DNA of 49,043 nucleotides from Escherichia phage PGN590. The notes beneath the pieces are model-generated. The model was not told the origin of the DNA. It was given only the letters and a program-made list of their open reading frames with translations, and did not search any database. The stretch lies in sequence record NC_049830.1. One strand, written 5' to 3'. A program made the translations under genes and the position numbers. This document shows, one piece after another, positions 3,798 to 42,669 of the stretch. Numbering within the stretch: the first letter of the stretch is position 1; each line of letters starts with the position of its first letter.

Positions 3798-3853
3798 GAT
3801 TTAATCCTCGTTTGTTGTCGATGGGCTTACTATACCGCAAGCCCGATAATCTG

Positions 3854-3873
3854 TTTTTGCAAAAAGTGCTATT
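3854..3873 (-). promoter_or_regulatory. intergenic repeat (variant TTGCAAAAA), promoter-like
   Basis: overlaps TAG of phosphatase gene; TATAGT 22 nt downstream, then conserved leader. Confidence 0.5.
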
Positions 3874-4582
3874 CAGCGTTAACAAAATCGCCGTCACTAT
3901 GATCGAATGACCAGGTACATCCAGAATCATCATGAACTATAAAGCTCTTGTCATGATAAGAAACAACGTCATAGGCTATTCCTCTAGTAAAGCTGGCATT
4001 GACCAAGCTGTCTTTGCTGCCGACGAATCTGGCGCGCTTCGTGATCTTGATGACCTCAACGCCGTGCGATTGGATGTGACTATGTGGCTTGTCGTATTCC
4101 GTGACCTGATAGGTTGTGATTCCCAGGCTGCGGAAGTGCTTAACCACGTTAGGCGAATCATCAAAAGCGCACACAATGTTTTCCAGTCCGATAGCGCGTA
4201 AGACTTCTTCTTTGATGATTGTGTCTTTGCGGTTATCTTCCTTGCGGCGCATGATTAACGCATCGTACTTGATGCCGCTTTCGTTAAGCCATTTGCAGGT
4301 GTCCGCCATTACTTCGTCGCTACGTCCGGTCAGGATAACAATGGCAAATCCTGACATCCATAATCCGTTAACCACTGCAACCGTGCTCTTAATCGGCGAA
4401 TCTCCAACAGCCGCCTTATTGAACTCAGACCAGCTTTCTGTAAGGTGCAAATCTTCTGTCGGAAGCAGGTGCAAGCGATGCGTTCCATCGGATAAAGTGC
4501 CGTCAAGATCAACAATAACAATCGGCTTGCTGGTGGAAAAATGGTATTTGCTGCCCCAAAGTTCAAATTCGTATTTTTTCAT
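3869..4582 (-). CDS. HAD-superfamily phosphatase (polynucleotide 3'-phosphatase-like)
   Basis: DxDxT motif VIVDLDGTLSDG near N-terminus; ATG 4580-4582. Confidence 0.6.
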   Translation of the reverse strand: MKKYEFELWGSKYHFSTSKPIVIVDLDGTLSDGTHRLHLLPTEDLHLTESWSEFNKAAVGDSPIKSTVAVVNGLWMSGFAIVILTGRSDEVMADTCKWLNESGIKYDALIMRRKEDNRKDTIIKEEVLRAIGLENIVCAFDDSPNVVKHFRSLGITTYQVTEYDKPHSHIQSHGVEVIKITKRARFVGSKDSLVNASFTRGIAYDVVSYHDKSFIVHDDSGCTWSFDHSDGDFVNAE

Positions 4583-5032: not shown

Positions 5033-5086
5033 CGTTTTATATCCTTCATTGAAAGTGAGGCCATTATACCTGGCCCCACATTTGAG

Positions 5087-5106
5087 TTTTAACAAAAAGT
5101 GCTATT
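5087..5106 (-). promoter_or_regulatory. intergenic 20-bp repeat, promoter-like
   Basis: canonical copy; consensus TATAAT at plus-strand 5063-5068, 21 nt downstream. Confidence 0.6.
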
Positions 5107-5330
5107 TCTTAATACATAGCGTGTGAGTGTACGCATAAAACCTGTTGTTGCTCTTGATCTGCTCTCGTGCCTCAATGCAAGATTGCTGGCTATTCATTTC
5201 GATATGGTCAACGCCGCCATCAATCATAAGAATCAGTAAAATCCAAGTAGCCATCTCTCACCTCAATAAAAGATAAACAGGTAGGCAAACAATCCGATCC
5301 ATGCGGCGACGTGCGCCGCAGTGAACAAAC

Positions 5331-6212: not shown

Positions 6213-6291
6213 GGTGCTTTCTCCTGATTGGTTTTGTGGGCGACGCCGTGCCGCCCTATGTTATTTATTATGCCTGGTTATCGTTTTTTAG

Positions 6292-6311
6292 TTTTAACAA
6301 AAAGTGCTATT
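6292..6311 (-). promoter_or_regulatory. intergenic 20-bp repeat, promoter-like
   Basis: abuts TAA of 6311-6496; CATAAT about 22 nt downstream. Confidence 0.55.
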
Positions 6312-6496
6312 TAGAATTTTACCTCTTCAACAAGCTCAACCATTTTATAACCTAGCAGATAAGAGTCACCGAACAACAAGATCCCCATAAATTCATCGCG
6401 GCTTATTGACTCTTTACCAACCGTTCTAAGCTCGCCATTGTGAATCACAGTATCGCTGATATTGATTTCTGATTTATGGACTAATTTCGTTTTCAT
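6311..6496 (-). CDS. hypothetical protein
   Basis: ORF track; ATG 6494-6496. Confidence 0.45.
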   Translation of the reverse strand: MKTKLVHKSEINISDTVIHNGELRTVGKESISRDEFMGILLFGDSYLLGYKMVELVEEVKF

Positions 6497-6697: not shown

Positions 6698-6754
6698 TTT
6701 GTTTTCCTCAATCTCGTTTCGATGAGGCTATTATGCCAGGCTTTGCGCCTGGCG

Positions 6755-6774
6755 TTTTAACAAAAAGTGCTATT
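6755..6774 (-). promoter_or_regulatory. intergenic 20-bp repeat, promoter-like
   Basis: overlaps TAG of lipoprotein gene; GC hairpin in spacer; CATAAT downstream. Confidence 0.55.
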
Positions 6775-7030
6775 TAATATCTGTTGTGACTTGTTGGTGC
6801 ATTACGTTTTTGCCGCTGTTGTATGTGCTATCCGTTGCGCCATTACAATTGGTGTAATAGATTGCTCGACCGTTGTCATAGAATCGGTACGCAGTGCATC
6901 CATCCACAGTAAACAGGCGACCGACTTTAAAATCTGACTCCACTCCTACGACAACCGTTGATTCCGATGCCTTCTCGCATCCGGTCAGGGTAGCAATTGC
7001 AATCAAAACTCCAATTAATGCCTTACTCAT
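6770..7030 (-). CDS. lipoprotein
   Basis: signal peptide plus lipobox LIAIATLTGC; four further Cys in mature part. Confidence 0.55.
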   Translation of the reverse strand: MSKALIGVLIAIATLTGCEKASESTVVVGVESDFKVGRLFTVDGCTAYRFYDNGRAIYYTNCNGATDSTYNSGKNVMHQQVTTDIK

Positions 7031-7508: not shown

Positions 7509-7829
7509 AGCATCTACTCCTTTTGTTGCGTTTAAACTGGATGCATTATTGCCTTGCCTCTCCTACATGTCAATATATTTTGTGTTTTAACAACAATTTT
7601 TGGCATGTGGCGCGTTTAAAGATAACAAAATGCTTCAGTTAAGTCATTGGTTTTTATGTTAAAAATGACCCTGTTGACTTGGTTGACGGAGGATTGCTTC
7701 ATACCCATATATATACATACAAAAATCACCACGCATCATCATTGATTAAAAAATATACAATCACACATACATATCACCACAAACAATACCAATCCACCAC
7801 ATACCCATAGAACAAGCACAACAGTAAAT

Positions 7830-7870
7830 AACAAATATAAATACATATATAACTAACTTATTGATTTTAT
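7830..7870. repeat. conserved block shared by both strand-switch control regions (copy 1)
   Basis: AACAAATATAAATACATATATAACTAACTTATTGATTTTAT; about 33/40 identical to 28024-28063; flanked by CA-rich tracts. Confidence 0.6.
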
Positions 7871-8150: not shown

Positions 8151-8161
8151 ACCAGTCAGCA

Positions 8162-8180
8162 AATAGCACTTTTTGTTAAA
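8162..8180 (+). promoter_or_regulatory. intergenic repeat, promoter-like (first rightward promoter)
   Basis: TACATT 22 nt after TTGTTA; drives 8244 gene; dyad element just upstream. Confidence 0.55.
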
Positions 8181-8243
8181 CCTGAATTGCCATGATCGGG
8201 TACATTAGACACATCGAAACGAGATACCCATCAGGAGATAGCA

Positions 8244-8771: not shown

Positions 8772-9038
8772 ATGGCACGAATCAATGCACCTATTCCAGT
8801 AAAACGCAAAGCACGACTGCTTAACAATGGATGTTACGCCATGCGGCCTGCATTTAAGGATCGCACCTTTCCGGTTATCGTCAACGTGTTGTACGTAAGC
8901 CGTAGCGGGAATCTGGCCTTTGTTAGCGGTGAAGATCTGGCGGCGATTGGATTCTATGGCGGTATTTACAGCGAACCGCTCGGATTCTGGATTGTAAATC
9001 CGTCAACTGGAGAACGCGAAATCGAACTCCTGGACTAA
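8772..9038 (+). CDS. hypothetical protein
   Basis: GAAGGGGAAA RBS; stop overlaps repeat motif. Confidence 0.5.
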   Translation: MARINAPIPVKRKARLLNNGCYAMRPAFKDRTFPVIVNVLYVSRSGNLAFVSGEDLAAIGFYGGIYSEPLGFWIVNPSTGEREIELLD

Positions 9039-9056
9039 TAGCACTTTTTGTTAAAA
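9037..9056 (+). promoter_or_regulatory. intergenic 20-bp repeat, promoter-like
   Basis: overlaps TAA of 8772-9038; TACATT 22 nt downstream; conserved leader. Confidence 0.55.
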
Positions 9057-9114
9057 CTCAATCCTCGTGTTCCTGTACATTACACACATCAACAACGAAT
9101 GCGAGGATTTGAAA

Positions 9115-9267: not shown

Positions 9268-9547
9268 ATTTTACAGCTACACCGATACCGTGGATTTTGA
9301 GGGGATACAATTGCCCCTCCCTAATATATACCGCTATATCACGCGTGACGAACGCGGATATATTGAAGCGTGGCGCTCATATCCAGTGCGGGATCTTGAA
9401 TTTGGCGGCTTCCGCTCTCTTGAGGGTGAGTTGCCGATCTGCTTCGGTCATCAAAGCGGTGAAAATCTTCCGGTTGTTGCGCGGCAGTATCGCAGACACA
9501 AGATCACAAGAGCACTTATCTCTTTAACTGGATCTGTTGTTGAATAG
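9257..9547 (+). CDS. hypothetical protein
   Basis: ATG 9257 overlapping upstream gene end; stop TAG inside repeat motif. Confidence 0.45.
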   Translation: MSSKFYSYTDTVDFEGIQLPLPNIYRYITRDERGYIEAWRSYPVRDLEFGGFRSLEGELPICFGHQSGENLPVVARQYRRHKITRALISLTGSVVE

Positions 9548-9562
9548 CACTTTTTGTTAAAA
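9543..9562 (+). promoter_or_regulatory. intergenic 20-bp repeat, promoter-like
   Basis: overlaps TAG of 9257-9547; TATATT 22 nt downstream; conserved leader. Confidence 0.55.
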
Positions 9563-9618
9563 ACGGTATGCGCCTGAATGGTATATTACATCCATCAACA
9601 ACGAACGAGGATTTAAAA

Positions 9619-10887: not shown

Positions 10888-11598
10888 ATGCATAAAGGTT
10901 TGATTTTCTCTTTGTTTGATGGATCTGGTAAAGCCGTTAAAGATTGGGCTGACGCTGGATATAAATGCATTTGCTTTAATTACGATGATGCTGATCACGG
11001 TGATTACCACTCAGTGCGCATAATCCACGACAATATTTTTTACGTTAATGTGTGGATTGATGAGCTATTCAAATATACCGCAAAACTTGAAAATTGGGGT
11101 AAGCCTGATTTTATTATGGCGTTCCCTCCATGCACTGACCTTGCAAATAGCGGATCTCGCCATTGGGCTAAAAAACGCATTGAGAATCCATCGTTCCAGG
11201 ATGAAGCCGCCGACACTTGCAAAATAGCGGCGCAAATTGCTGATTATTTCGGTGTTCCGTACATGATAGAGAATCCTGTAGGCAAGCTGTCAACGCTATG
11301 GCGCAAGCCTGATTATACGTTCCATCCGTGCGATTATGCTGGCTATCTGCCGGAAGATGATAAACATCCCGACTTTCCTGATATTATTCCGGCGCGGGAT
11401 AGGTACTTTAAGAAAACATGCCTTTGGACTGGAAACGGATTTGTTATTCCTCCTCGCGCAACAATCCTTCCTAAAGAGGGCGACAAGGATAATCCTGGTT
11501 GGGCCAAAACTGGCGGAAAATCATCTCGCACAAAGATGATCCGCTCCCTCACACCGCGCGGTTTTGCTCGCGCAGTATTTGAAGCAAACGCAAAATAG
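10888..11598 (+). CDS. DNA (cytosine-5) methyltransferase-like protein, compact
   Basis: motif I-like LFDGSGKA, PC motif AFPPCTDLANSGS, ENV-like MIENPVG; no obvious target-recognition domain. Confidence 0.5.
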   Translation: MHKGLIFSLFDGSGKAVKDWADAGYKCICFNYDDADHGDYHSVRIIHDNIFYVNVWIDELFKYTAKLENWGKPDFIMAFPPCTDLANSGSRHWAKKRIENPSFQDEAADTCKIAAQIADYFGVPYMIENPVGKLSTLWRKPDYTFHPCDYAGYLPEDDKHPDFPDIIPARDRYFKKTCLWTGNGFVIPPRATILPKEGDKDNPGWAKTGGKSSRTKMIRSLTPRGFARAVFEANAK

Positions 11599-11613
11599 CA
11601 CTTTTTGTTAAAA
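11594..11613 (+). promoter_or_regulatory. intergenic 20-bp repeat, promoter-like
   Basis: overlaps TAG of methyltransferase-like gene; CATAAT at 11633-11638. Confidence 0.55.
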
Positions 11614-11669
11614 GCTAGGTGTAAAAGCCTGGCATAATCACTTCACCGAAACGAAAGGAGAAATAAACG

Positions 11670-12056
11670 ATGAAAGTTATCTGCAATAAAACCAACGTTT
11701 TGATGAACGGTCGTTATAAAGCTGTATACGAAAAAATTGCTGGTAGCGATGATGTGATCGAGTTGGAACAATTCCAGGTAAAGAGCATTACAAAGGGTAG
11801 CAAGTGGCAAAATGCTGTTGAGTCTGACTATCGTAATATCAAGACAAAAACAATTAAATGCACATTTGTAGATCACAAGATCCCGTGCAAAAAGCATTTC
11901 AAAGAAGGAAAGCGCTACCAGATTGAGCAAGGCCGCGCTCTTGGCGCTGTTGCTGGTTATGTGTTTGATGAAGCTGGCGACCGCTGGACGCTATACCGCG
12001 AAGAAGTTGGGTTTTCCGCTGGTGGCTGTCATTTATTTGAGGCTATGTATAAGTGA
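11670..12056 (+). CDS. hypothetical protein
   Basis: AAAGGAG RBS; promoter-like repeat upstream. Confidence 0.5.
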   Translation: MKVICNKTNVLMNGRYKAVYEKIAGSDDVIELEQFQVKSITKGSKWQNAVESDYRNIKTKTIKCTFVDHKIPCKKHFKEGKRYQIEQGRALGAVAGYVFDEAGDRWTLYREEVGFSAGGCHLFEAMYK

Positions 12057-12274
12057 TCAAGGCTGAATATCGCTATAAGGTGACTCATTCAGCAACAAAA
12101 ACCTTCAAGCCTGGCGATATAGTCAGGCCAATAAAGAAAACGATGGTTGGATGGCTGATTGGTCTTTCTTACCACAAATCACTTTATTTTGATTTTGCTG
12201 ATTCCGTAACCGCGTATTGCCATAGCGCAAGGGAACCAGAAAAAATCTTAGTTAGCATAGAGCGGATCAAATAG
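12053..12274 (+). CDS. hypothetical protein
   Basis: GTG start overlapping upstream stop (GTGA); stop TAG inside repeat motif. Confidence 0.4.
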   Translation: MIKAEYRYKVTHSATKTFKPGDIVRPIKKTMVGWLIGLSYHKSLYFDFADSVTAYCHSAREPEKILVSIERIK

Positions 12275-12288
12275 CATTTTTTGTTAAA
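12270..12288 (+). promoter_or_regulatory. intergenic repeat (variant AATAGCATTTTTTGTTAAA), promoter-like
   Basis: overlaps TAG of 12053-12274; TATTAT at 12309-12314 inside a hairpin. Confidence 0.5.
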
Positions 12289-12343
12289 TGCGGGTAGCAT
12301 TGGTGCGGTATTATTGCCGCATCAAAAAAAGGAGTTATCATCA

Positions 12344-13927
12344 ATGAATTTTTCGTTTGAAACCAATAAACTAACACCAAAACAAATTATCGAATTAGCT
12401 GATGCACAAGGATTGTCTCCGGTGCGCGTGTCCATTCAGGCAAACGGATACCGTCAATCGTCCAGCTTTTGGGGTGAGGTTAATGATGTTAATAACGGAA
12501 ATGATCGCTACCCTGTAATTTCTCTTGGTAATGATGTTGATGTTGTTGGTAAGTTGGCGCGCAACATTGCTCGATCAGTTCAGTTCCCTGAATCATCGGC
12601 ATATATGCACTTTATAGGCTGCGTGTCTGCTGCAATGCTTGGACGCTTCACGGTTGAGTATCACGGAACGGATCAGCCGACCGCTCTTTATGTTGTCACA
12701 AGCCAGCCTCCTTCAACTGGTAAATCCGCCGTTAACAGCCTGGCACTTGCTCCAATGGTTGCAGAAGTGGAAAGAATTAACGATCAGCGAAAGAAGGAAA
12801 GAAAAAAGATTCAGGCAAAGTTGGCAGGTCTTGCAAAAGAGATGAAAAGCGAGCGCTCCGGCGCTGATATGGAATCTCTGTACCAGGAGAAAGAAGATCT
12901 GGAAGAAAAACTTGAAAAGATGTGTGACATTGTTTTCCCTGTGTCCGACACCACGCCGGAAGGACTTGCAAGAATCAACAATCGCCAGGGTAACTTTGCT
13001 GTGATTTCAGACGAGGCAACGAGTATTAACAGCCTTTTAGGTCTGACATATGCCAATAGCGAACGTAAAACCAACAGCGAACTTGTGCTGAAAGCATGGG
13101 ATCATGGTCATGTTTCTATAGCTCGTGCAAACGCTGACAACAATATGAGTTTTAAAGCTCTTGGCTGTATGGCTGTAATTGCCCAGGATGAAACAATCAA
13201 TGCCATCATGGATGCAGGATCGCGCGGTATCGGTGTAAGTGAGCGTTATTTGCTTGTACGCGAGGAATCATTTTTAGGCCGTAGAAAGTTTGTTGATGAT
13301 AACGGTGATTCTACTTATGAGCCTGTTGATGGAGAACTGAAAAGCCAATATTTCAAGCTGATCCATAACATCATGAGTGAATCAAACATCCAGCTTAAGA
13401 TCAGCAAATCAGCAATGCGAGTTCTTAACATGGCTCGTCAGGAGATGGAACCGCACCTTGCTGATGGAGGAAAATATTCGCATACAATGCTGCGCGGCGC
13501 TCTTGGCAAAATGGATAAGCAGGTGATCAGGATTGCTTCGGTTTTGCACACTATCCGAAACTGGTTTAATCCTGGCGGATACCCTCAAAAGTCGAAAGAG
13601 ATTGAGGTTGAAACCGTTCAGGAAGCATTGCTGATGTTTAGCGAGTTGAGCAAAACATACATTAGCGCCGCCAACGCTTCTGGCTATGCTGGTGATGATG
13701 CTGAAATGGGTAAACTAATCGAGATCATCACTCGACACGGCAAGGCTAATAAGGGGATCTTGAATGTGCGCGCAATATATGAGGCTGCACGAAAAGTTAA
13801 GCCGTTTATTGGCCAGGCTGGCGTAATGAAGCGTATGGAAACGCAACTGCTGCCGATGCTTGAAGAAAGAAATTATATTTGTGTGATTAATGGAGTTGTT
13901 TTTGTAAATCCAACATTGCTGGGGTAA
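12344..13927 (+). CDS. P-loop NTPase (SF3-helicase-like Walker A)
   Basis: AAGGAG RBS; Walker A VVTSQPPSTGKSA; Walker B-like FAVISDEA; coiled-coil insert between them. Confidence 0.5.
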   Translation: MNFSFETNKLTPKQIIELADAQGLSPVRVSIQANGYRQSSSFWGEVNDVNNGNDRYPVISLGNDVDVVGKLARNIARSVQFPESSAYMHFIGCVSAAMLGRFTVEYHGTDQPTALYVVTSQPPSTGKSAVNSLALAPMVAEVERINDQRKKERKKIQAKLAGLAKEMKSERSGADMESLYQEKEDLEEKLEKMCDIVFPVSDTTPEGLARINNRQGNFAVISDEATSINSLLGLTYANSERKTNSELVLKAWDHGHVSIARANADNNMSFKALGCMAVIAQDETINAIMDAGSRGIGVSERYLLVREESFLGRRKFVDDNGDSTYEPVDGELKSQYFKLIHNIMSESNIQLKISKSAMRVLNMARQEMEPHLADGGKYSHTMLRGALGKMDKQVIRIASVLHTIRNWFNPGGYPQKSKEIEVETVQEALLMFSELSKTYISAANASGYAGDDAEMGKLIEIITRHGKANKGILNVRAIYEAARKVKPFIGQAGVMKRMETQLLPMLEERNYICVINGVVFVNPTLLG

Positions 13928-13929
13928 TT

Positions 13930-14322
13930 ATGTTTCTTCTGGACCTGTATCGCTGGTGTGAGTCATTCGAATGGTTTACACGTCAACATATAGCGAAATT
14001 TATATTTCAGCATAGAGAATGTGAGCGGCTCGCAAGGGCCGCAGGATTTACACCGAGAATGTTTGCGACTGCCGTTTCAAAAGAGTTTTGCGCAAGAATG
14101 ATGACCGCTGGTTATCTTGATGGAGTTGATGGAAAGTTCTGGTGTAAGAAAGGATCCGCAAATCGCCCTTTCTCGTTTGAACTTTACAGCCTGGAAGGTA
14201 TGCAAAACGAATGGGTTAGGGATGTTTTAAGGATCGGAGAAATGAGCGATGAAGAATTGTTTGCGTCAAATGCTAATAGACAAAATATTGAAGTTCTGCG
14301 CCGTAAGTTCAATCTCACATGA
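13930..14322 (+). CDS. hypothetical protein
   Basis: ATG 13930 three nt after upstream stop. Confidence 0.5.
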   Translation: MFLLDLYRWCESFEWFTRQHIAKFIFQHRECERLARAAGFTPRMFATAVSKEFCARMMTAGYLDGVDGKFWCKKGSANRPFSFELYSLEGMQNEWVRDVLRIGEMSDEELFASNANRQNIEVLRRKFNLT

Positions 14323-14445
14323 AGACTTCATGTACGCAATGTTAACGCTAATTCATTCTGACATGCGAGCGTTTAACATATCAGAGCATAATTTGTGCGA
14401 TGATGACGGCGTTTTGTTGGTTACTGTAAAGCGCATTGAATAACA

Positions 14446-14475
14446 AAGGAGGCGTTAAGCCTCCTTTTTCTTTTC
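14446..14475 (+). terminator. intrinsic terminator ending rightward early operon
   Basis: AAGGAGGC-gttaa-GCCTCCTT then TTTCTTTTC; overlaps 3' end of convergent spanin gene. Confidence 0.6.
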
Positions 14476-15693: not shown

Positions 15694-16809
15694 TCAATCA
15701 GCCATTTCCGGATAATGCATAAATCGCCCCACTTCTCCGTATTCTTTATCGTAAACAATAACAGCCGCACGGCGACGGGAACGCCATCCACCGCGCGCCG
15801 CATATGCATCTTTTGCCGCCATAGTGCTGTGCACTTCAACAATGCCCAGGCTTGTTTCAGTTACTGTCTGATGATGCCAGTGCCCTACGTGAGCATACAT
15901 CATTTTTGAATTTCCGAAGTCTTCGCGCCAGTCTGCCGCACACATCATGAGCAATGTTTCAGGCTTGCGTATAGTGTGCCCATGATGGTATGCCAGGAAT
16001 GTCTTGCCATATTGTGTGTGATGAACTACTCGCGGAGAAACATCAACATGCACTCGTGGCTCATTCTCATATGCTGCCGCCATTGCTGCGCGCAACCAGA
16101 TCATGCCGCTTTGGTCGTGGTTGCCCTCAATTATCTGAATCTCGACGTTTTTGTGTTTTGATAACAGCTTTGCTATTGCTCGACGCACTGACCGGATTGC
16201 AACGTAAACAAGTTTTGCGTATCGACTATCTTGATCCAATACGTGACCGCTTGCAGGTGTTACCGCTTCCAGTCCGTCGCTGTGAAGCATATCACCACCA
16301 ATCAGCAAGACAGCTTTTTCACTATCCGGCGCGCACTGTATGGAATAATCAATGAAATTATTCATTACGCGCTCTGCTGTTGCTGTATCCCAATTCTCGC
16401 CGCATTCATGCTTATGCGCCATTGCGCCCAGGTGCATATCAAAGATCGGATACAGTGATAACGTCTCGCTATAATCCTTTTGTGATTCCGGTTGCGGATC
16501 AAGTCGCGGAACTTCTTCGCTAAATGCATCCATAGCGGCCTGCATTAATGCTTCTAACTGTTCGCGGTCCTTGCTTGTCTTAATCCATGTCATAACCACA
16601 TTTCCATCTTTATCAATTAGCTTTGATTCTCCAGTAACACCAAAACCAGGTGATCCGATGGTTGTAACTTTACCTTGCTTTGCTAATCGTGCTGCGCGGC
16701 GCTCAATGCTTCGAACGTTCATACCATACTCATTAGCGATCTGCTTATATGTCTTTCCCTGCTTGCGCTCATTGATAAATTGTTCATCTGTTATTTTGAT
16801 TTGCTTCAT
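15694..16809 (-). CDS. HTH-domain calcineurin-like metallophosphoesterase
   Basis: N-terminal HTH (KTYKQIANEYGMNVRSIERR); DxH (FDMHLG), GDxxH (GGDMLHSDG), GNHD motifs; ATG 16807-16809 after AAGGAG. Confidence 0.6.
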   Translation of the reverse strand: MKQIKITDEQFINERKQGKTYKQIANEYGMNVRSIERRAARLAKQGKVTTIGSPGFGVTGESKLIDKDGNVVMTWIKTSKDREQLEALMQAAMDAFSEEVPRLDPQPESQKDYSETLSLYPIFDMHLGAMAHKHECGENWDTATAERVMNNFIDYSIQCAPDSEKAVLLIGGDMLHSDGLEAVTPASGHVLDQDSRYAKLVYVAIRSVRRAIAKLLSKHKNVEIQIIEGNHDQSGMIWLRAAMAAAYENEPRVHVDVSPRVVHHTQYGKTFLAYHHGHTIRKPETLLMMCAADWREDFGNSKMMYAHVGHWHHQTVTETSLGIVEVHSTMAAKDAYAARGGWRSRRRAAVIVYDKEYGEVGRFMHYPEMAD

Positions 16810-16907
16810 CAAAAATTCTCCTTATCTCATTATGACAACATACACAATAGAGATCGCCATCATAACAGGTAAGGGCAAAAGTAACAAACGCCACATGATA
16901 ATAATCC

Positions 16908-17319: not shown

Positions 17320-17376
17320 TTTTATTTCCTCATGTTTGTTTCGTTGAAATAATTATGCCCGACACAAAGCCGGGCG

Positions 17377-17396
17377 TTTTAACAAAAAGTGCTATT
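17377..17396 (-). promoter_or_regulatory. intergenic 20-bp repeat, promoter-like
   Basis: overlaps TAG of 17392-17631; GC hairpin in spacer; CATAAT downstream. Confidence 0.55.
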
Positions 17397-17631
17397 TTGA
17401 TGCTGATTCGTAAAACTCTTGCAAGTCTTTACCGATCTGCTCATGCCATTTTTCAAGCGGTAGTTTTCTTGTTTCCTCAAAGCTCATGTCAAGCGCGCTT
17501 GTAAATTCCCACGGGTCGCAACCTAACAGCGGTTTTATGAACTCGTTTTTATCAAGCGCTTCGCAAACCATAGCGCGAAATAGCAACCACTCTCCAGTTT
17601 CATTTAAATAAACGCTTCTTTCTTTCTGCAT
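17392..17631 (-). CDS. hypothetical protein
   Basis: start set to ATG 17629-17631 (MQKERSVY) with GGAG RBS, 4 nt after dam stop. Confidence 0.45.
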   Translation of the reverse strand: MQKERSVYLNETGEWLLFRAMVCEALDKNEFIKPLLGCDPWEFTSALDMSFEETRKLPLEKWHEQIGKDLQEFYESASK

Positions 17632-18337: not shown

Positions 18338-18396
18338 TTCTTAATTACCTGTTGCTTGTTGAACTGGTGTTATTATGGCGCAATCCTTCGCGCCTG

Positions 18397-18416
18397 TTTT
18401 AACAAAAAGTGCTATT
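18397..18416 (-). promoter_or_regulatory. intergenic 20-bp repeat, promoter-like
   Basis: overlaps TAG of VRR-NUC gene; CATAAT downstream; upstream of dam. Confidence 0.55.
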
Positions 18417-18831
18417 TCATCATGTGTTCTACAGCGATCATGAATTGCTTATATCCGTATGTTACGGCAGCGTATCCGCCAAGCTCGCGCACGCGGCGTA
18501 AGAAGGCTTTTTGCTCCTTGCTGACTGGTGAAGCCTTACCCTTGCCAGACTTATTGACGCGCTTCATCTCAATAGCCGCGAAAGGGTAGCGGCCTTTTAA
18601 TCCAATCAGGATGATAAAATCACTTACTCCCTTAACGAGTCCGGCTTGCTGATCCATCATTGCGGTGGCGATCCCCTTGTCGCCCTCGTTTTTCGTATGC
18701 CATGCCAGCAATTCAGGATGAGCATAACTCAACCATTGAAACGCCCCGATCTGGTGTGATTCCTCTTTTAGCGTATCCGTCGGATCTCTTTCGTAAAACT
18801 CCAGATAATCGCCTTTATCAGTCATTGGCAT
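18412..18831 (-). CDS. VRR-NUC-type PD-(D/E)xK nuclease
   Basis: GVSDFIIL and AIEMK motifs (D ... E-x-K); adjacent to helicase. Confidence 0.55.
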   Translation of the reverse strand: MPMTDKGDYLEFYERDPTDTLKEESHQIGAFQWLSYAHPELLAWHTKNEGDKGIATAMMDQQAGLVKGVSDFIILIGLKGRYPFAAIEMKRVNKSGKGKASPVSKEQKAFLRRVRELGGYAAVTYGYKQFMIAVEHMMK

Positions 18832-20863
18832 AATTAAATTCCTTCTTGTATAAATTATCTTCGCCCTTGCTAGTCTTGCGGTGAGTCACACGCGATGGTG
18901 GCATGATGTGATTCACATATTGCATTATTTTTCGTGCATTACGATAGCTCGCCACCATGCCAGCAACACGGCGATCCGGTATGTGCTTAAGAGCAACGCT
19001 TCGCCATTTTGCGCGGCAAATTTGGCTCTCAGATTCAGGGAAAAATATCTCTCTCGCCCTGAAAGTGTCTATGCCATCGGAAAGCTCATAATTAAATATT
19101 ATCCCTTTCTGGTTTTTCGTCATGTCAACCGAGAAAGATTGCACCTTGAACCAGTCGTTTTTTGTGTAGTGCTTTCCGCTCAACTTCTCGTTAGGGTCAA
19201 TCAATGACATGTCGCAATGTCTGCATACCCTGGCCGCAATATCATTCTTCGTTCCGCAACCGCGATGAATAATCTTTTTAGTTCGAGGGTCAATCTGATC
19301 ATCACATGTCCTGAATTTAAAGAACCACTCACATCTGTTGCCGTTTTCGTCTACGTGCATACAACGACGAGCATAATAGCTGTTAAGAGTTCCGCAAATA
19401 GGGCACGGTTTCGGATCTTTACCGTTCCTGAATCGCTTCTGGTGCTGCGCCTGTTCCAGTATCGGATCAAAATAAAGTTCCCCTAGCTCGTCCATCGTTC
19501 CTGAAAAGTCCATAACGAGGTGATCATCTTTCTGGAATCCTTGCTCCTTATGCCACTTCTTAAGTAGTCGCATTCCGCGCCCCAAAAGCTGAATCAGCAA
19601 AGTTAGCGATCCAATCTTGCGCAGTATGACAGACGTATCCCAAAACGGAACGTTAACGCCAGTTGTTAGCGCCTGCACCTGGAAGATGTATTTTACCTTT
19701 CCCTCGTATGCTTCCTTTAACCACTCCTTGCGCTGGTTATCGCCAGTCTTACCAGTAATGATCCTGTAAGTAGTTCCAGGTGGCAATGCTGCCGCTGCCT
19801 CTTTGCAATGCCTTTCTCCCGCACATGTCACAAGTACACCGTTACGGTTTTTACAGATCTCGTGAACTTTAGCCATGATGCGCTTTGTCATGGTCGCTTC
19901 TTCGTGAATTTTTTGTTCCATCCTGCGAAGCGTTTTAGCGTCAAAGTCTGCGACGCCATCCTCGCTGGATGCCTCAAACTCTGAAAGGTCATACCCTAGA
20001 TCGCCAACGTCGCCAAAATTTGTTGGCACAACAGAACCGAATTTGATCAGGTAGTTGGTGTCAATATTAGTAACCTGTTCACGCCAGAATCCTTTCTGTT
20101 TTTTGTCTTCTACCAGGATCGGGACTACTCCGCGAAACTCCGAACCAGTCATACCAAAGATGCGCAGTTCATGACCATATGCTTTCCTGCAACGTCGCAT
20201 CATTTCCATGATAATGACAGTGTATTGCGTGCGGCCTGTTCCCTCCATTGGTAAGCCATCCTCACCAATCAGGAACTCTGTATTTCTGTTCCTGCTGCCC
20301 TTTGTTATGTCATAATCTGGATTTGGTACTTTTTCGCCTTTCTTCGTTGTCATTTGTAAAAATGATTCGTCTTTCTCTATGGCGTCGGCAAGGTCTTCCC
20401 AATCCACCTGGTGACACTCGTCAATCCCGATAACGTGCGGAACATAGTCGCCAAGCGCTTTAAACAGTCCATTAACTACAGTGCCCTCAGAACCAACAAC
20501 AATCGGAAAGTATGCGCTTTTTGTCTTCAGTCCTGCGCAATAGATGGAGTTCGGCACGCCAAGATTTGTTATCTCTTCAGAATCCTGATCCACAATCTCA
20601 GCCTGGCGAGCAAGGACCATCATTTTTAATCCAATTTTCCGGCACTGGTGAGCAACCATTGCAAACATCAATGTTTTGCCAGCCGATACGGACGCTTTAA
20701 CAAAGAATGGATGCTCATAATTTTTCATACGCTTTGCGATCTCAGCGTATGCAACGCACTGGTAAGGGTAAGGCACAATCTCGCCAACAGTGAATCGCTC
20801 CTGAATGGATTTAATTACCGCTTCACCAAGTGCTGATATTTGCTTTTCAATGTTTGGAATCAT
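18818..20863 (-). CDS. SF2 DNA helicase (DEAH-box) with C-terminal zinc-ribbon region
   Basis: Walker A SAGKT, DExH IGIDECHQ; C-terminal Cys clusters; start set to ATG 20861-20863 (AAAGG RBS). Confidence 0.8.
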   Translation of the reverse strand: MIPNIEKQISALGEAVIKSIQERFTVGEIVPYPYQCVAYAEIAKRMKNYEHPFFVKASVSAGKTLMFAMVAHQCRKIGLKMMVLARQAEIVDQDSEEITNLGVPNSIYCAGLKTKSAYFPIVVGSEGTVVNGLFKALGDYVPHVIGIDECHQVDWEDLADAIEKDESFLQMTTKKGEKVPNPDYDITKGSRNRNTEFLIGEDGLPMEGTGRTQYTVIIMEMMRRCRKAYGHELRIFGMTGSEFRGVVPILVEDKKQKGFWREQVTNIDTNYLIKFGSVVPTNFGDVGDLGYDLSEFEASSEDGVADFDAKTLRRMEQKIHEEATMTKRIMAKVHEICKNRNGVLVTCAGERHCKEAAAALPPGTTYRIITGKTGDNQRKEWLKEAYEGKVKYIFQVQALTTGVNVPFWDTSVILRKIGSLTLLIQLLGRGMRLLKKWHKEQGFQKDDHLVMDFSGTMDELGELYFDPILEQAQHQKRFRNGKDPKPCPICGTLNSYYARRCMHVDENGNRCEWFFKFRTCDDQIDPRTKKIIHRGCGTKNDIAARVCRHCDMSLIDPNEKLSGKHYTKNDWFKVQSFSVDMTKNQKGIIFNYELSDGIDTFRAREIFFPESESQICRAKWRSVALKHIPDRRVAGMVASYRNARKIMQYVNHIMPPSRVTHRKTSKGEDNLYKKEFNYAND

Positions 20864-20921
20864 TCTAAAACCTTTGAGTAATGCCATTTGGCGTGTATAA
20901 TACACAATCATTAAATCATCG

Positions 20922-20940
20922 TTTAACAAAAAATGCTATT
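20922..20940 (-). promoter_or_regulatory. intergenic repeat (variant), promoter-like, helicase side of divergent region
   Basis: sense AATAGCATTTTTTGTTAAA; TATTAT (plus-strand 20897-20902) downstream. Confidence 0.5.
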
Positions 20941-21481: not shown

Positions 21482-22414
21482 ATGAATAACGAAAACTTTA
21501 TGGTTTATCAAAAGGAAGATGTACTCCCATATATGCAAGGATTGTGGCGTGATGCGCTACAAAGTATTTGCGGTCTTCCAAATGAAGTTTTTAACGGCAA
21601 GCATCAATCTTGCCCACACTGCGGCGGAAAGGATCGCTTCAGATGGACGGATAAACTTGGCGATAAAAAAGGCGATGGCGGTGCGATCTGCAACGTGTGC
21701 GGTAATGATACCGGAATTGGTTGGATCATGAAGCTAACCGGAGAGCCTTACAGCGAAGTGATCAACATTTTGGGCAGATTTCTTGGAAAAGTTCCTCAGG
21801 ACTATAGAATAAAGGCAAATAAGCGAGTATCTCGTGATTCTGGTTATTCGTTTGGTAAACAGGCAAGTCATGAATGCTGCGAGCGCGTTATGTCAAAAAC
21901 ACTAAAATTTGATCGAACGCCGTTAAGCACATATGAAGGAATATACCCACCTGAAGATGGTCATTATGATTGCGGCGTAAAAGATGGTAGATACATTCAC
22001 GCGCTACCTTGTCACCTGGTACACTCAGATGAGATTGATGATGAAATGTGCAATGTGCTTTTCATTGATGAAGAAGGTAAACAATCTTTTCTAGCAAAGG
22101 ACTACACGCGCGGGTCGGTAGTGAGAACAGGAAGCACCGATAAGACTATCTATCTTTGCGTTGACTGGATTGATGCGCAACACATCCATCTTGCAACTGG
22201 TCAAGAGGTTTGGTCATGTTTTGATGCAACTAACATTGAGATTGTGGCTTACAGGTATAAAGGCAACAGAAGAATGCGAGTTGTCTGTAAGAGTACAGAC
22301 CGTGACACAATCATTGCTGCTGAGGAAAGAGGTATTGAAATTATGATTCCGATTAATGATAATTACAGGCAAGGGATAGAGAGGAAAGTTTACAAACCTG
22401 AATCTCTTCTCTAA
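21482..22414 (+). CDS. DNA primase (zinc-ribbon type)
   Basis: GAGGTG RBS; CPHCGG...CNVCG zinc ribbon near N-terminus; strong terminator follows. Confidence 0.6.
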   Translation: MNNENFMVYQKEDVLPYMQGLWRDALQSICGLPNEVFNGKHQSCPHCGGKDRFRWTDKLGDKKGDGGAICNVCGNDTGIGWIMKLTGEPYSEVINILGRFLGKVPQDYRIKANKRVSRDSGYSFGKQASHECCERVMSKTLKFDRTPLSTYEGIYPPEDGHYDCGVKDGRYIHALPCHLVHSDEIDDEMCNVLFIDEEGKQSFLAKDYTRGSVVRTGSTDKTIYLCVDWIDAQHIHLATGQEVWSCFDATNIEIVAYRYKGNRRMRVVCKSTDRDTIIAAEERGIEIMIPINDNYRQGIERKVYKPESLL

Positions 22415-27748: not shown

Positions 27749-28023
27749 GATTTGCCCTCATTGGTTGGTATGTCTGCATTGTAGCTATTTGATGCGTTTA
27801 GTCAATAGTTATTTTGTTTTTTCTGTTCTAACAACGTTCTCACCAACTTTGGTAACAAAACTTACATGTAAGAGATTGATAAATATCAGTGTTGTCTTTT
27901 TGTTCTCTTGTTCATCCATTTGCGCCGGATATAGATATATAGACACACAAACACTAACACATACACAACCAAATAAAAATTACCAGACACACAAAATCAC
28001 ACAAAACATAGATAACAAGAAAA

Positions 28024-28063
28024 AACAAATATAAATATATACACTACTAACTCATTGATTTAT
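28024..28063. repeat. conserved block shared by both strand-switch control regions (copy 2)
   Basis: AACAAATATAAATATATACACTACTAACTCATTGATTTAT; flanked by CA-rich and TATATA tracts. Confidence 0.6.
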
Positions 28064-28172
28064 ATATATGTATATATACTTATCTGTATGTATAGCGCTC
28101 TATTACTGTTCACTTTTTGAGCTAAATTTAAGCCTCCGCAGATTTGAGAACGAAGGAAAACAAAAAGAACAG

Positions 28173-28191
28173 AATAGCACTTTTTGCTAAA
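28173..28191 (+). promoter_or_regulatory. intergenic repeat (variant TTGCTAAA), promoter-like
   Basis: in control region 2; TATAGT at 28211-28216; drives lipoprotein gene. Confidence 0.5.
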
Positions 28192-28247
28192 CGCACGCCG
28201 CAAGATCGTGTATAGTTGCAACTAACAATAACTAAGGAGAAAACAAG

Positions 28248-38860: not shown

Positions 38861-38873
38861 TTCTTTCTCCTTG

Positions 38874-38892
38874 ATAGCACTTTTTGTTAAAA
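38874..38892 (+). promoter_or_regulatory. repeat copy oriented antisense to the late genes
   Basis: ATAGCACTTTTTGTTAAAA on plus strand between major tail and G genes; TATCAT 22 nt downstream. Confidence 0.4.
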
Positions 38893-38931
38893 GAATTGAT
38901 TATGAATCGTGTATCATGATTGTACAGTAAC

Positions 38932-42586: not shown

Positions 42587-42632
42587 TTTCTTCCTCCATA
42601 TATAAAGGTCGTTAGTATGTAACGGACCAATG

Positions 42633-42650
42633 ATAGCATTTTTTGTTAAA
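42633..42650 (+). promoter_or_regulatory. repeat copy oriented antisense to the late genes
   Basis: ATAGCATTTTTTGTTAAA on plus strand upstream of capsid gene; weak TATGAG 22 nt downstream. Confidence 0.35.
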
Positions 42651-42669
42651 CGTGCAACCTAATTTTGTG

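What the first reader, a model, noticed from the sequence alone, without database searches (positions are those of the whole stretch)
12344..13927. Large early P-loop ATPase with SF3-helicase-like Walker A and a coiled-coil insert
This is the only large protein in the small-gene early operon. It has a Walker A of the GPPxTGKS style (SQPPSTGKS), a hydrophobic-DE Walker B candidate (FAVISDEA) about 100 residues later, and a charged coiled-coil segment (KKERKKIQAKLAGLAKEMKSE) in between. The genome already has an SF2 helicase and a primase elsewhere, so this ATPase may have a different role (origin recognition, host DNA manipulation, or an exclusion/anti-defence function).
Basis: inference. Interest (0 to 1): 0.5.

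Follow-up and report, generated by a model that had tools for sequence, protein, structure and literature searches.

The report
MCM-like DUF3987 helicase of T1-like phage
The large early gene encodes a DUF3987 ATPase with an MCM-like fold, most likely the phage's own replication-fork helicase; this family and annotation are already known, so the finding is real but ordinary.

The parts
12344..13927 (+). Gene for the 527-aa DUF3987 (MCM-like AAA+) helicase
   Evidence: ORF and translation. Pfam DUF3987 E=1.8e-43 over aa 82-431. PHROG 2373 'DNA helicase' E=2.8e-245. 97-98% nt identity to genes annotated as helicase in Hanrivervirus-like phages.
12330..12334 (+). Shine-Dalgarno AGGAG, 9 nt upstream of the ATG
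   Evidence: Read directly from the sequence.
12267..12291 (+). Copy of the T1-group intergenic repeat (AATAGCAyTTTTTGTTAAA), about 55 nt upstream of the ATG; a possible transcription-control element for this gene
   Evidence: Repeat families D1 and D5. The same element is described in TLS, T1 and Rtp, with its function unresolved (PMC11447400).
12344..12643 (+). N-terminal region (aa 1-100): small helical domain plus linker; replaced in relatives by DnaB_N or primase domains
   Evidence: AF2 helices 12-22, 26-34, 37-42, 67-78 and 83-98. Relatives' fusions.
12701..12727 (+). Deviant Walker A, SQPPSTGKS (aa 120-128; K127)
   Evidence: K127 is conserved in 145/145, Q121 in 140 and P122 in 140.
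12722..12919 (+). Helical hairpin (aa 127-192) extending the P-loop helix; basic RKKERKK stretch followed by an acidic return helix
   Evidence: AF2 H127-169 and H173-192, with block-mean pLDDT about 85-96. The Walker A-to-B spacing has a median of 97 aa across the family. Weak WWC1 helical-hairpin hit.
12995..13018 (+). Walker B, FAVISDEA (aa 218-225; D223, E224)
   Evidence: Strand 218-222 in the model. E224 is conserved in 147/147; D223 is D in only 58/149.
13109..13156 (+). Beta-hairpin before sensor 1 (aa 256-271) with invariant R261: candidate pre-sensor-1 hairpin that contacts DNA
   Evidence: Strands 256-259 and 268-271. R261 is conserved in 148/148. The functional assignment is an inference from MCM and SF3 helicases.
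13163..13192 (+). Strand beta-4 and candidate sensor 1 (GCMAVIAQDE; Q281)
   Evidence: Strand 274-280. Q281 is conserved in 145/146. Assignment by position is an inference.
13238..13246 (+). S-E-R (aa 299-301), candidate trans-acting arginine finger, resembling the MCM 'SRF' motif
   Evidence: R301 is conserved in 145/145 and E300 in 135/149. It lies immediately before strand 302-306. The role is an inference.
13331..13681 (+). Alpha-helical lid domain (aa 330-446) with the invariant RGxxGKxD motif (R384, K389), a candidate sensor 2
   Evidence: Helices 330-344, 355-372, 381-388, 390-406 and 422-446. K389 is conserved in 144/144.
13694..13906 (+). C-terminal winged-helix domain (aa 451-521)
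13930..14322 (+). Downstream 130-aa gene starting 3 nt after the helicase stop; winged-helix protein; possible partner or regulator (association by synteny only)
14445..14467 (+). Terminator-like hairpin closing the + strand early operon
   Evidence: 9-bp stem followed by a T-run.
21482..22414 (+). Stand-alone Zn-ribbon (T7/P4-type) DNA primase, the presumed partner of the helicase
   Evidence: Pfam Zn_Ribbon_Prim E=8.5e-13. PHROG 510 matched over its primase half only, positions 5-316 of 667. ATG at 21482.
18818..20863 (-). SF2 helicase, a RadD homolog (the 'other' helicase)
   Evidence: Pfam ResIII and Helicase_C. PDB 6jde RadD E=7.3e-41. Co-linear with DUF3987 in distant phages. The start coordinate is approximate.

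Best explanation
The gene encodes the replicative (fork) helicase of this T1-like phage. It is a DUF3987-family AAA+ ATPase whose motor module has the MCM fold. By analogy with MCM and with the one DUF3987 protein studied biochemically, it should assemble into a ring, presumably a hexamer. ATP would bind at subunit interfaces, with K127/S128 and D223/E224 in cis and R301 as the arginine finger in trans; Q281 would act as sensor 1 and K389/R384 as a sensor-2-like residue from the lid. Hydrolysis would drive the R261-bearing beta-hairpin in the central channel along single-stranded DNA to unwind the duplex. The phage's stand-alone Zn-ribbon primase would prime on the unwound strands, and the host Pol III holoenzyme would synthesise DNA, because no polymerase is annotated in a near-identical genome. 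The C-terminal winged helix and the small N-terminal domain are the likely sites for origin/DNA binding and partner binding. The conserved charged helical hairpin after the P-loop helix is a family hallmark of unknown role. Shown here: family membership, fold, motif conservation, gene context. Inferred: ring assembly, the residue roles, helicase activity, partnership with the primase and host polymerase. Unknown: polarity (5'->3' in the characterised relative AgaPH, 3'->5' in MCM), and whether the protein also melts the origin.
Against: There is no experiment on any T1-group member. In this window the gene is not next to the primase: it is about 7.5 kb away, across the lysis cassette. No sequence-level (HMMER) link to MCM or to any solved structure was found, so the residue roles rest on a predicted model and on motif position. 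Oligomeric state was not modelled. I could not find data on whether T1 needs host DnaB, DnaC or DnaG, so a loader/initiator role is not excluded. The MCM helix-2 insert hairpin is not apparent in the model. The polarity reported for AgaPH is opposite to that of MCM, which shows that mechanistic transfer from MCM is imperfect.
Confidence: 0.7

Rival explanations
1. It is an origin-binding initiator and/or helicase loader (AAA+ plus winged helix, as in Orc1/Cdc6 or DnaA/DnaC) that melts the phage origin and recruits host DnaB, rather than being the fork helicase itself.
Confidence: 0.12
2. It is a recombination or restart motor (branch migration, D-loop extension), analogous to MCM8/9 or ComM, serving recombination-dependent replication and concatemer formation rather than origin-dependent fork unwinding.
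Against: Its immediate conserved neighbour is the primase, and family-wide fusions are with primase domains. The recombination-helicase niche is already occupied by the RadD homolog.
Confidence: 0.1
3. One reading: a non-replicative ATPase used for exclusion, anti-defence or host-DNA manipulation.
For: It lies in an operon of small early genes of unknown function. T1 and TLS degrade host DNA by an unidentified early function (PMC11447400).
Against: There is no nuclease or effector domain. PADLOC gave only a coiled-coil noise hit, E=0.005. It is a core gene across 919 T1-like and related phage records. The whole DUF3987 family is tied to primases. I found no defence-escape study implicating it.
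Confidence: 0.05
4. It is an SF3 (E1/LTag/D5-type) helicase, as the P-loop string suggested.
For: QPPSTGKS resembles the papillomavirus E1-type GPPNTGKS P-loop (recalled knowledge, not tested here). SF3 and MCM both carry a pre-sensor-1 hairpin.
Confidence: 0.03

Closest known systems
DUF3987 (PF13148) helicases, e.g. AgaPH, the PriCT-DUF3987 protein of Seonamhaeicola sp. S2-3 (PMC11724360)
   Same: Same Pfam family and the same Walker A/B-dependent AAA+ module, with a small C-terminal domain. AgaPH forms an oligomer, unwinds 5'-overhang and forked DNA using ATP or dATP, and binds its primase-polymerase.
   Different: AgaPH has an N-terminal PriCT domain and partners with an AEP primase-polymerase on an integrated element. 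The window protein has a different small N-terminal domain, partners (by inference) with a DnaG/T7-type Zn-ribbon primase, and sits in a virulent phage with no annotated polymerase. I did not have the AgaPH sequence, so no direct alignment was made.
MCM helicases (SF6; archaeal MCM, eukaryotic Mcm2-7, MCM8/9)
   Different: No Pfam MCM hit and only 10-17% identity. No N-terminal OB-fold or Zn-finger domain. No evident helix-2 insert; instead a long helical hairpin after helix 1. Deviant QPPSxGKS P-loop. The characterised DUF3987 relative translocates 5'->3', whereas MCM goes 3'->5'.
Phage N4 gp43 (dns), cited in PMC4889955 as a DUF3987-AEP fusion essential for N4 replication
   Same: The order Walker A, long insert, 'TP' motif and hhhDE aligns with the window family (hhalign). 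It carries a weak DUF3987 hit and a PriCT_1 domain.
   Different: Very distant: DUF3987 at 24.2 bits is below the 27-bit cut-off, and hhalign probability is only 18%. It is fused to a C-terminal primase region. N4 encodes its own DNA polymerase.
Cch (SCCmec) and staphylococcal island Rep/primase-helicases (PDB 5dgk, 7ola, 8tch)
   Different: Much weaker structural similarity than to MCM, and a different Pfam family (DUF927, according to PMC5862659).

Membership tests
DUF3987 (PF13148) | Pfam HMM score above the gathering threshold over the whole domain | tested here: met
   149.6 bits against a cut-off of 27. Residues 82-431 match profile positions 3-350 of 364 in one stretch.
DUF3987 (PF13148) | [quoted passage not shown] | tested here: met
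   K127 145/145 and E224 147/147 in 149 representatives. D223 is present here but is variable across the family.
DUF3987 (PF13148) | [quoted passage not shown] | tested here: met
DUF3987 (PF13148) | Association with an AEP or DnaG-type primase, by fusion or as a neighbouring gene (PMC4889955) | tested here: met
   Met in relatives: fusions, and an adjacent or near-adjacent primase gene in L003, L007 and L009. In this window the primase is in the genome but about 7.5 kb away.
DUF3987 (PF13148) | ATP-dependent DNA unwinding activity | not testable with these tools
   Shown only for AgaPH (PMC11724360).
MCM family / SF6 helicases | AAA+ core and lid fold closest to MCM | tested here: met
MCM family / SF6 helicases | Sequence-profile membership (Pfam MCM PF00493) | tested here: not met
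   No MCM hit at E<=1. No PDB MCM chain found by phmmer or hmmsearch at E<=10. The link in the literature is by HHsearch only.
MCM family / SF6 helicases | N-terminal OB-fold/Zn-finger DNA-binding domain | tested here: not met
   The model's first 100 residues are short helices and loops with no beta-barrel.
MCM family / SF6 helicases | Pre-sensor-1 beta-hairpin | tested here: met
   Strands 256-259 and 268-271, between helix 246-252 and strand 274-280, with invariant R261. This comes from a model, not a structure.
MCM family / SF6 helicases | Helix-2 insert beta-hairpin | tested here: inconclusive
   Helix 205-215 is uninterrupted in the model. The large insertion (127-192) is helical and follows helix 1. 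No coordinates were available for a residue-level superposition.
MCM family / SF6 helicases | 3'->5' translocation polarity | not testable with these tools
   The characterised DUF3987 relative is 5'->3'.
SF3 helicases (E1, LTag, Rep, D5) | Fold and profile similarity to SF3 helicase domains | tested here: not met
DnaB-type (SF4, RecA-fold) replicative helicases | RecA-fold motor with DnaB_C profile | tested here: not met
   No DnaB_C hit. The fold is AAA+. One relative merely carries a DnaB N-terminal domain.
AAA+ initiators and loaders (Orc1/Cdc6, DnaA, DnaC) | AAA+ core closest to the initiator clade | tested here: not met

The most novel reading that the evidence does not exclude
An MCM-fold ring helicase would be the sole fork helicase of a bacterial virus. 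It would work with a bacterial-type (DnaG/T7-like) primase and directly hijack the E. coli Pol III holoenzyme, a hybrid replisome that bypasses DnaA, DnaB and DnaC. It would have lagging-strand (5'->3') polarity despite its MCM-like motor. The family-specific charged helical hairpin would serve as the adaptor to host replisome parts (tau, SSB or the clamp loader) or as the strand-separation element. The protein might also be the long-unidentified T1 origin-melting initiator.
Probability: 0.3. Interest if true: 0.5.

Novelty: already known. Interest (0 to 1): 0.2.

Why it matters
T1-like phages (Drexlerviridae) are abundant, are notorious laboratory and fermentation contaminants, and are candidates for phage therapy. 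Their replication mechanism has hardly been studied. A 2024 re-annotation paper still names the SF2 protein as 'the helicase' and does not discuss this protein in the passages I read. Identifying the DUF3987 protein as the probable fork helicase and the SF2 protein as a RadD-like repair helicase tidies the replication model for the group. It also points to a tractable E. coli system for learning how an MCM-fold motor couples to a bacterial primase and to host Pol III. As a discovery it is minor: the family, its MCM relationship and its helicase activity are all published, and near-identical proteins are already annotated as helicases.

Tried and rejected
1. Sequence searches of the PDB with the protein and with a 39-sequence profile found nothing meaningful, only coiled-coil noise. 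A residue-level alignment to MCM could therefore not be made, and motif roles are assigned by position in the model.
2. NCBIfam and PADLOC gave only coiled-coil noise hits. A defence or anti-defence role was rejected.
3. The second profile search with the search for homologous proteins returned the same 167 proteins and added only a few more distant ones.
4. Literature searches for T1's requirements for host dna genes, and for defence-escape mutations in this gene, found nothing relevant. The supplements of PMC4889955 are not held, so I could not see which helicase those authors assigned to T1.
5. I looked for iterons or an origin in or next to the gene. There are no internal repeats; there is only the known intergenic T1-group repeat upstream. 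GATC density in the gene is only slightly above the window average (7.6 against 5.6 per kb). No origin can be proposed.
6. The sigma-70 promoter scan of the operon found fewer sites than in shuffled sequence (11 against 18.1), so it was uninformative.
7. The comparison with N4 gp43 shows it is too distant to be useful.
8. The alternative TTG start at 12281 was rejected in favour of the ATG at 12344.

Full report
**Observation**

The ORF at 12344-13927 on the + strand is real. It translates without interruption to 527 residues plus a stop. An AGGAG Shine-Dalgarno sequence lies at 12330-12334, 9 nt upstream of the ATG, and homologs begin at the same methionine. The longer TTG-initiated ORF from 12281 is therefore not the gene.

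- SQPPSTGKS at aa 120-128.
- FAVISDEA at aa 218-225.
- KKERKKIQAKLAGLAKEMKSE at aa 150-170.

The gene is the largest in a + strand operon of mostly small genes. That operon also contains a Dcm-like methyltransferase and ends at a strong terminator-like hairpin at 14445-14467.

**Where the window comes from**

The gene is 97-98% identical in DNA to genes of Escherichia phages G29-2, egaa, herni and JakobBernoulli (Bas07) and of Salmonella phage slyngel. These are Drexlerviridae, Tempevirinae, genus Hanrivervirus, that is, T1-like siphoviruses. At the protein level it is 99.8% identical to the 'putative helicase' of phage grams. Homologs occur in 919 phage records. T1 itself has one at 57.5% identity, annotated only as 'hypothetical protein'.

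**What it is**

The protein is an unambiguous member of Pfam DUF3987. It scores E=1.8e-43 and 149.6 bits against a cut-off of 27, with residues 82-431 covering nearly the whole model. It also matches PHROG 2373 'DNA helicase' at E=2.8e-245. A separate PHROG covers the C-terminal 85 residues. NCBIfam, PADLOC and HMMER searches of PDB sequences gave only coiled-coil noise.

An exhaustive profile search found 5,777 cluster representatives at E<=0.001 and 375 at E<=1e-30. The family is therefore large.

**Structure**

AlphaFold2 with a 39-sequence alignment gave a confident model, with mean pLDDT 87.6 and pTM 0.85. Its parts are:
- A small N-terminal helical region (aa 1-100).
- An alpha/beta ATPase core. 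Strand 116-120 leads into the P-loop, strand 218-222 carries Walker B, and a beta-hairpin at 256-271 precedes strands 274-280 and 302-306.
- An all-helical lid (aa 330-446).
- A C-terminal winged helix (aa 451-521).

This reproduces what Kazlauskas et al. concluded from profile-profile comparison in 2016. They described DUF3987 proteins as divergent SF6 helicases distantly related to MCM. They noted a C-terminal wHTH and frequent fusion to, or adjacency with, AEP or DnaG primases, and predicted them to be replicative helicases (PMC4889955; see also PMC5862659).

In 2025 a PriCT-DUF3987 protein, AgaPH, was shown to be an oligomeric 5'->3' helicase. It depends on ATP or dATP and on its Walker A and B motifs, and it binds its cognate primase-polymerase (PMC11724360).

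**Motifs**

I compared 149 representatives, each from a different 50%-identity cluster.

| Residue | Conservation | Candidate role |
|---|---|---|
| K127 | 145/145 | Walker A lysine |
| E224 | 147/147 | Walker B glutamate |
| R261 | 148/148 | DNA contact on the hairpin before sensor 1 |
| Q281 | 145/146 | Sensor 1, at the end of strand 274-280 |
| R301 | 145/145 | Arginine finger |
| K389 | 144/144 | Sensor-2-like residue, in RGxxGKxD of the lid |

- R301 lies in S-E-R-[FY]-L-L, just before strand 302-306. This resembles the MCM 'SRF' arginine finger; that resemblance is recalled knowledge and an inference.
- The Walker A is deviant: QPPSxGKS, with Q121 in 140/145 and P122 in 140/145.
- The Walker B aspartate (D223 here) is D in only 58 of 149 relatives, A in 53 and S in 28. 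The neighbouring S222 is conserved in 138.
- The spacing from Walker A to Walker B has a median of 97 residues (range 53-114).

It is a family hallmark. It consists of a continuous helix 127-169 that extends the P-loop helix, plus a return helix 173-192. The segment has 40% charged residues, against 24% for the whole protein.

It lies after helix 1. I did not see an MCM-type helix-2 insert hairpin, since helix 205-215 is uninterrupted. Without coordinates I could not superpose the structures, so that point stays inconclusive.

**Context, and the 'second helicase' argument**

Besides this gene, the window encodes the following:
- A Cro-like regulator.
- A stand-alone Zn-ribbon primase (21482-22414). 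It matches only the primase half of a primase-helicase PHROG.
- An SF2 helicase (18818-20863, minus strand).
- Erf, SSB and an exonuclease VIII-like PDDEXK nuclease.
- An Mre11/SbcD-like 'DNA repair exonuclease'.

The SF2 helicase is a homolog of E. coli RadD (PDB 6jde, E=7.3e-41). RadD is a recombinational-repair helicase, not a fork helicase; that description is established knowledge.

No DNA polymerase is annotated anywhere in the near-identical complete Bas07 genome. The TLS re-annotation paper states that T1 and TLS lack one and probably use host enzymes (PMC11447400).

In distant relatives at 35-38% identity the genes are contiguous:
- In Acinetobacter phage AB4P2 the primase is one gene away, followed by the SF2 helicase and exonuclease VIII.
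- In Vibrio phage D71 the SF2 helicase follows directly.
- In two metagenomic phage contigs the order is DUF3987, Zn_ribbon_DnaG primase, ResIII/DEAD helicase, DUF3799 exonuclease, and in one of them AAA_24.

Longer relatives carry fusions to a DnaG-type CHC2 zinc finger, to a DnaB N-terminal domain or to BT4734-like AEP primase domains.

The three proteins are thus a conserved set with different jobs, not redundant alternatives. Drexlerviridae have merely separated the DUF3987 gene from the primase by the lysis cassette and the methylase genes.

**Mechanism proposed**

The protein is most likely the phage's ring-shaped replicative helicase. ATP would bind between subunits, with K127, S128, D223 and E224 in cis and R301 in trans. 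Q281 would act as sensor 1 and K389/R384 would contribute from the lid. The R261 hairpin would pull ssDNA through the pore. The phage primase would prime and host Pol III would polymerise. The C-terminal winged helix and the N-terminal domain would mediate origin/DNA contacts and partner contacts.

Shown here: family membership, fold, motif conservation and gene context. Inferred: ring assembly, residue roles, unwinding and the partnerships.

Polarity cannot be predicted, because AgaPH moves 5'->3' and MCM moves 3'->5'. Whether the protein also melts the origin is unknown. I put about 0.7 on the replicative-helicase reading.

Rival readings and my confidence in each:
- Initiator or loader that recruits host DnaB: 0.12.
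- Recombination or restart motor: 0.10.
- SF3 classification: 0.03.

**The neighbouring gene**

**Comparison and novelty**

The protein is a member of DUF3987. All sequence and structural criteria tested were met. Activity is untestable here.

It works like an MCM-type AAA+ helicase, but it is not a member of the MCM family proper:
- It has no MCM profile hit.
- It has no OB/Zn N-terminal domain.
- It has a different insertion.
- Its polarity may be opposite.

It is also not an SF3 helicase, not a DnaB-type helicase and not an initiator-clade AAA+ protein.

Near-identical proteins are already deposited as 'putative helicase' or 'DNA helicase'. The family's MCM relationship was published in 2016 and its helicase activity in 2025. 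I therefore rate the finding as already known.

Its residual interest is modest:
- T1-group papers still treat the RadD-like protein as 'the helicase'.
- No T1-group DUF3987 protein has been studied.
- An MCM-fold motor working with a bacterial primase and host Pol III in E. coli would be a convenient model system.

Interest: 0.2.

Noticed in passing
window, + orientation: 8159-8183, 9034-9058, 9540-9564, 11591-11615, 12267-12291, 28170-28194, 38870-38894, 42629-42653; reverse orientation: 1201-1227, 3848-3874, 5081-5107, 6286-6312, 6749-6775, 17371-17397, 18391-18417, 20905-20940: A roughly 20-nt element, AATAGCAC(T)5GTTAAA, recurs at 16 or more sites. In the early operons its orientation follows the direction of transcription. 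One copy lies about 55 nt upstream of the helicase ATG. It matches the '21 nt direct repeat' aaATAGCACnnnTTGnTAAAA reported for TLS, T1 and Rtp, whose function (enhancer, UP element or stoperator) is unresolved.
   Followed up: partly
window 7757-7867 and 27951-28061 (plus tandem AT-rich repeats at 7825-7857 and 28061-28094): A 111-nt sequence occurs twice at 70% identity. Each copy lies beside a short AT-rich tandem repeat, in regions where the gene direction switches. These are candidates for divergent promoter regions or replication origins.
   Followed up: no
window 12995-13018 (aa 218-225) and the family alignment: Across 149 DUF3987 representatives the Walker B aspartate is D in only 58, A in 53 and S in 28. 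The following Glu (147/147) and the preceding Ser (138/149) are conserved. This is unusual for an active AAA+ ATPase and suggests a non-canonical way of coordinating Mg2+ in much of the family.
   Followed up: partly
window 18818-20863 (-): The phage's SF2 'DNA helicase' is a clear homolog of the E. coli repair helicase RadD (PDB 6jde, E=7.3e-41). It is conserved next to DUF3987, the primase and the exonuclease in distant phages. T1-group papers describe it as the replication helicase.
   Followed up: partly
window 13930-14322 (+): A 130-aa gene starts 3 nt after the helicase stop. It is labelled 'YdbL' in some phage records and is syntenic in T1. It is predicted (pLDDT 87.8) to be a winged-helix protein with only generic MarR/ArsR-like structural matches.
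   Followed up: partly
window 11670-12056 (+): The gene two positions upstream of the helicase encodes a 128-aa protein of unknown function (PHROG 2684). A '128aa protein of unknown function' from phage SECphi27 is reported as the determinant of sensitivity to Mokosh type I (bioRxiv 10.1101/2022.08.27.505566). I did not check whether the two are the same protein.
   Followed up: no
window 15694-16812 (-): A 372-aa protein combines an N-terminal HTH with a match to PHROG 704 'DNA repair exonuclease' (GDxxH...GNHD-type metallophosphatase motifs, Mre11/SbcD-like). It sits between the lysis cassette and the Dam methylase and is conserved in T1 at 57% identity.
   Followed up: no
phage database hits: About 20 records labelled 'Campylobacter phage' (host C. 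jejuni) carry this T1-type helicase gene at 60-80% nucleotide identity. That is unexpected for an enterobacterial phage group and may reflect mislabelled or contaminating T1-like phages.
   Followed up: no
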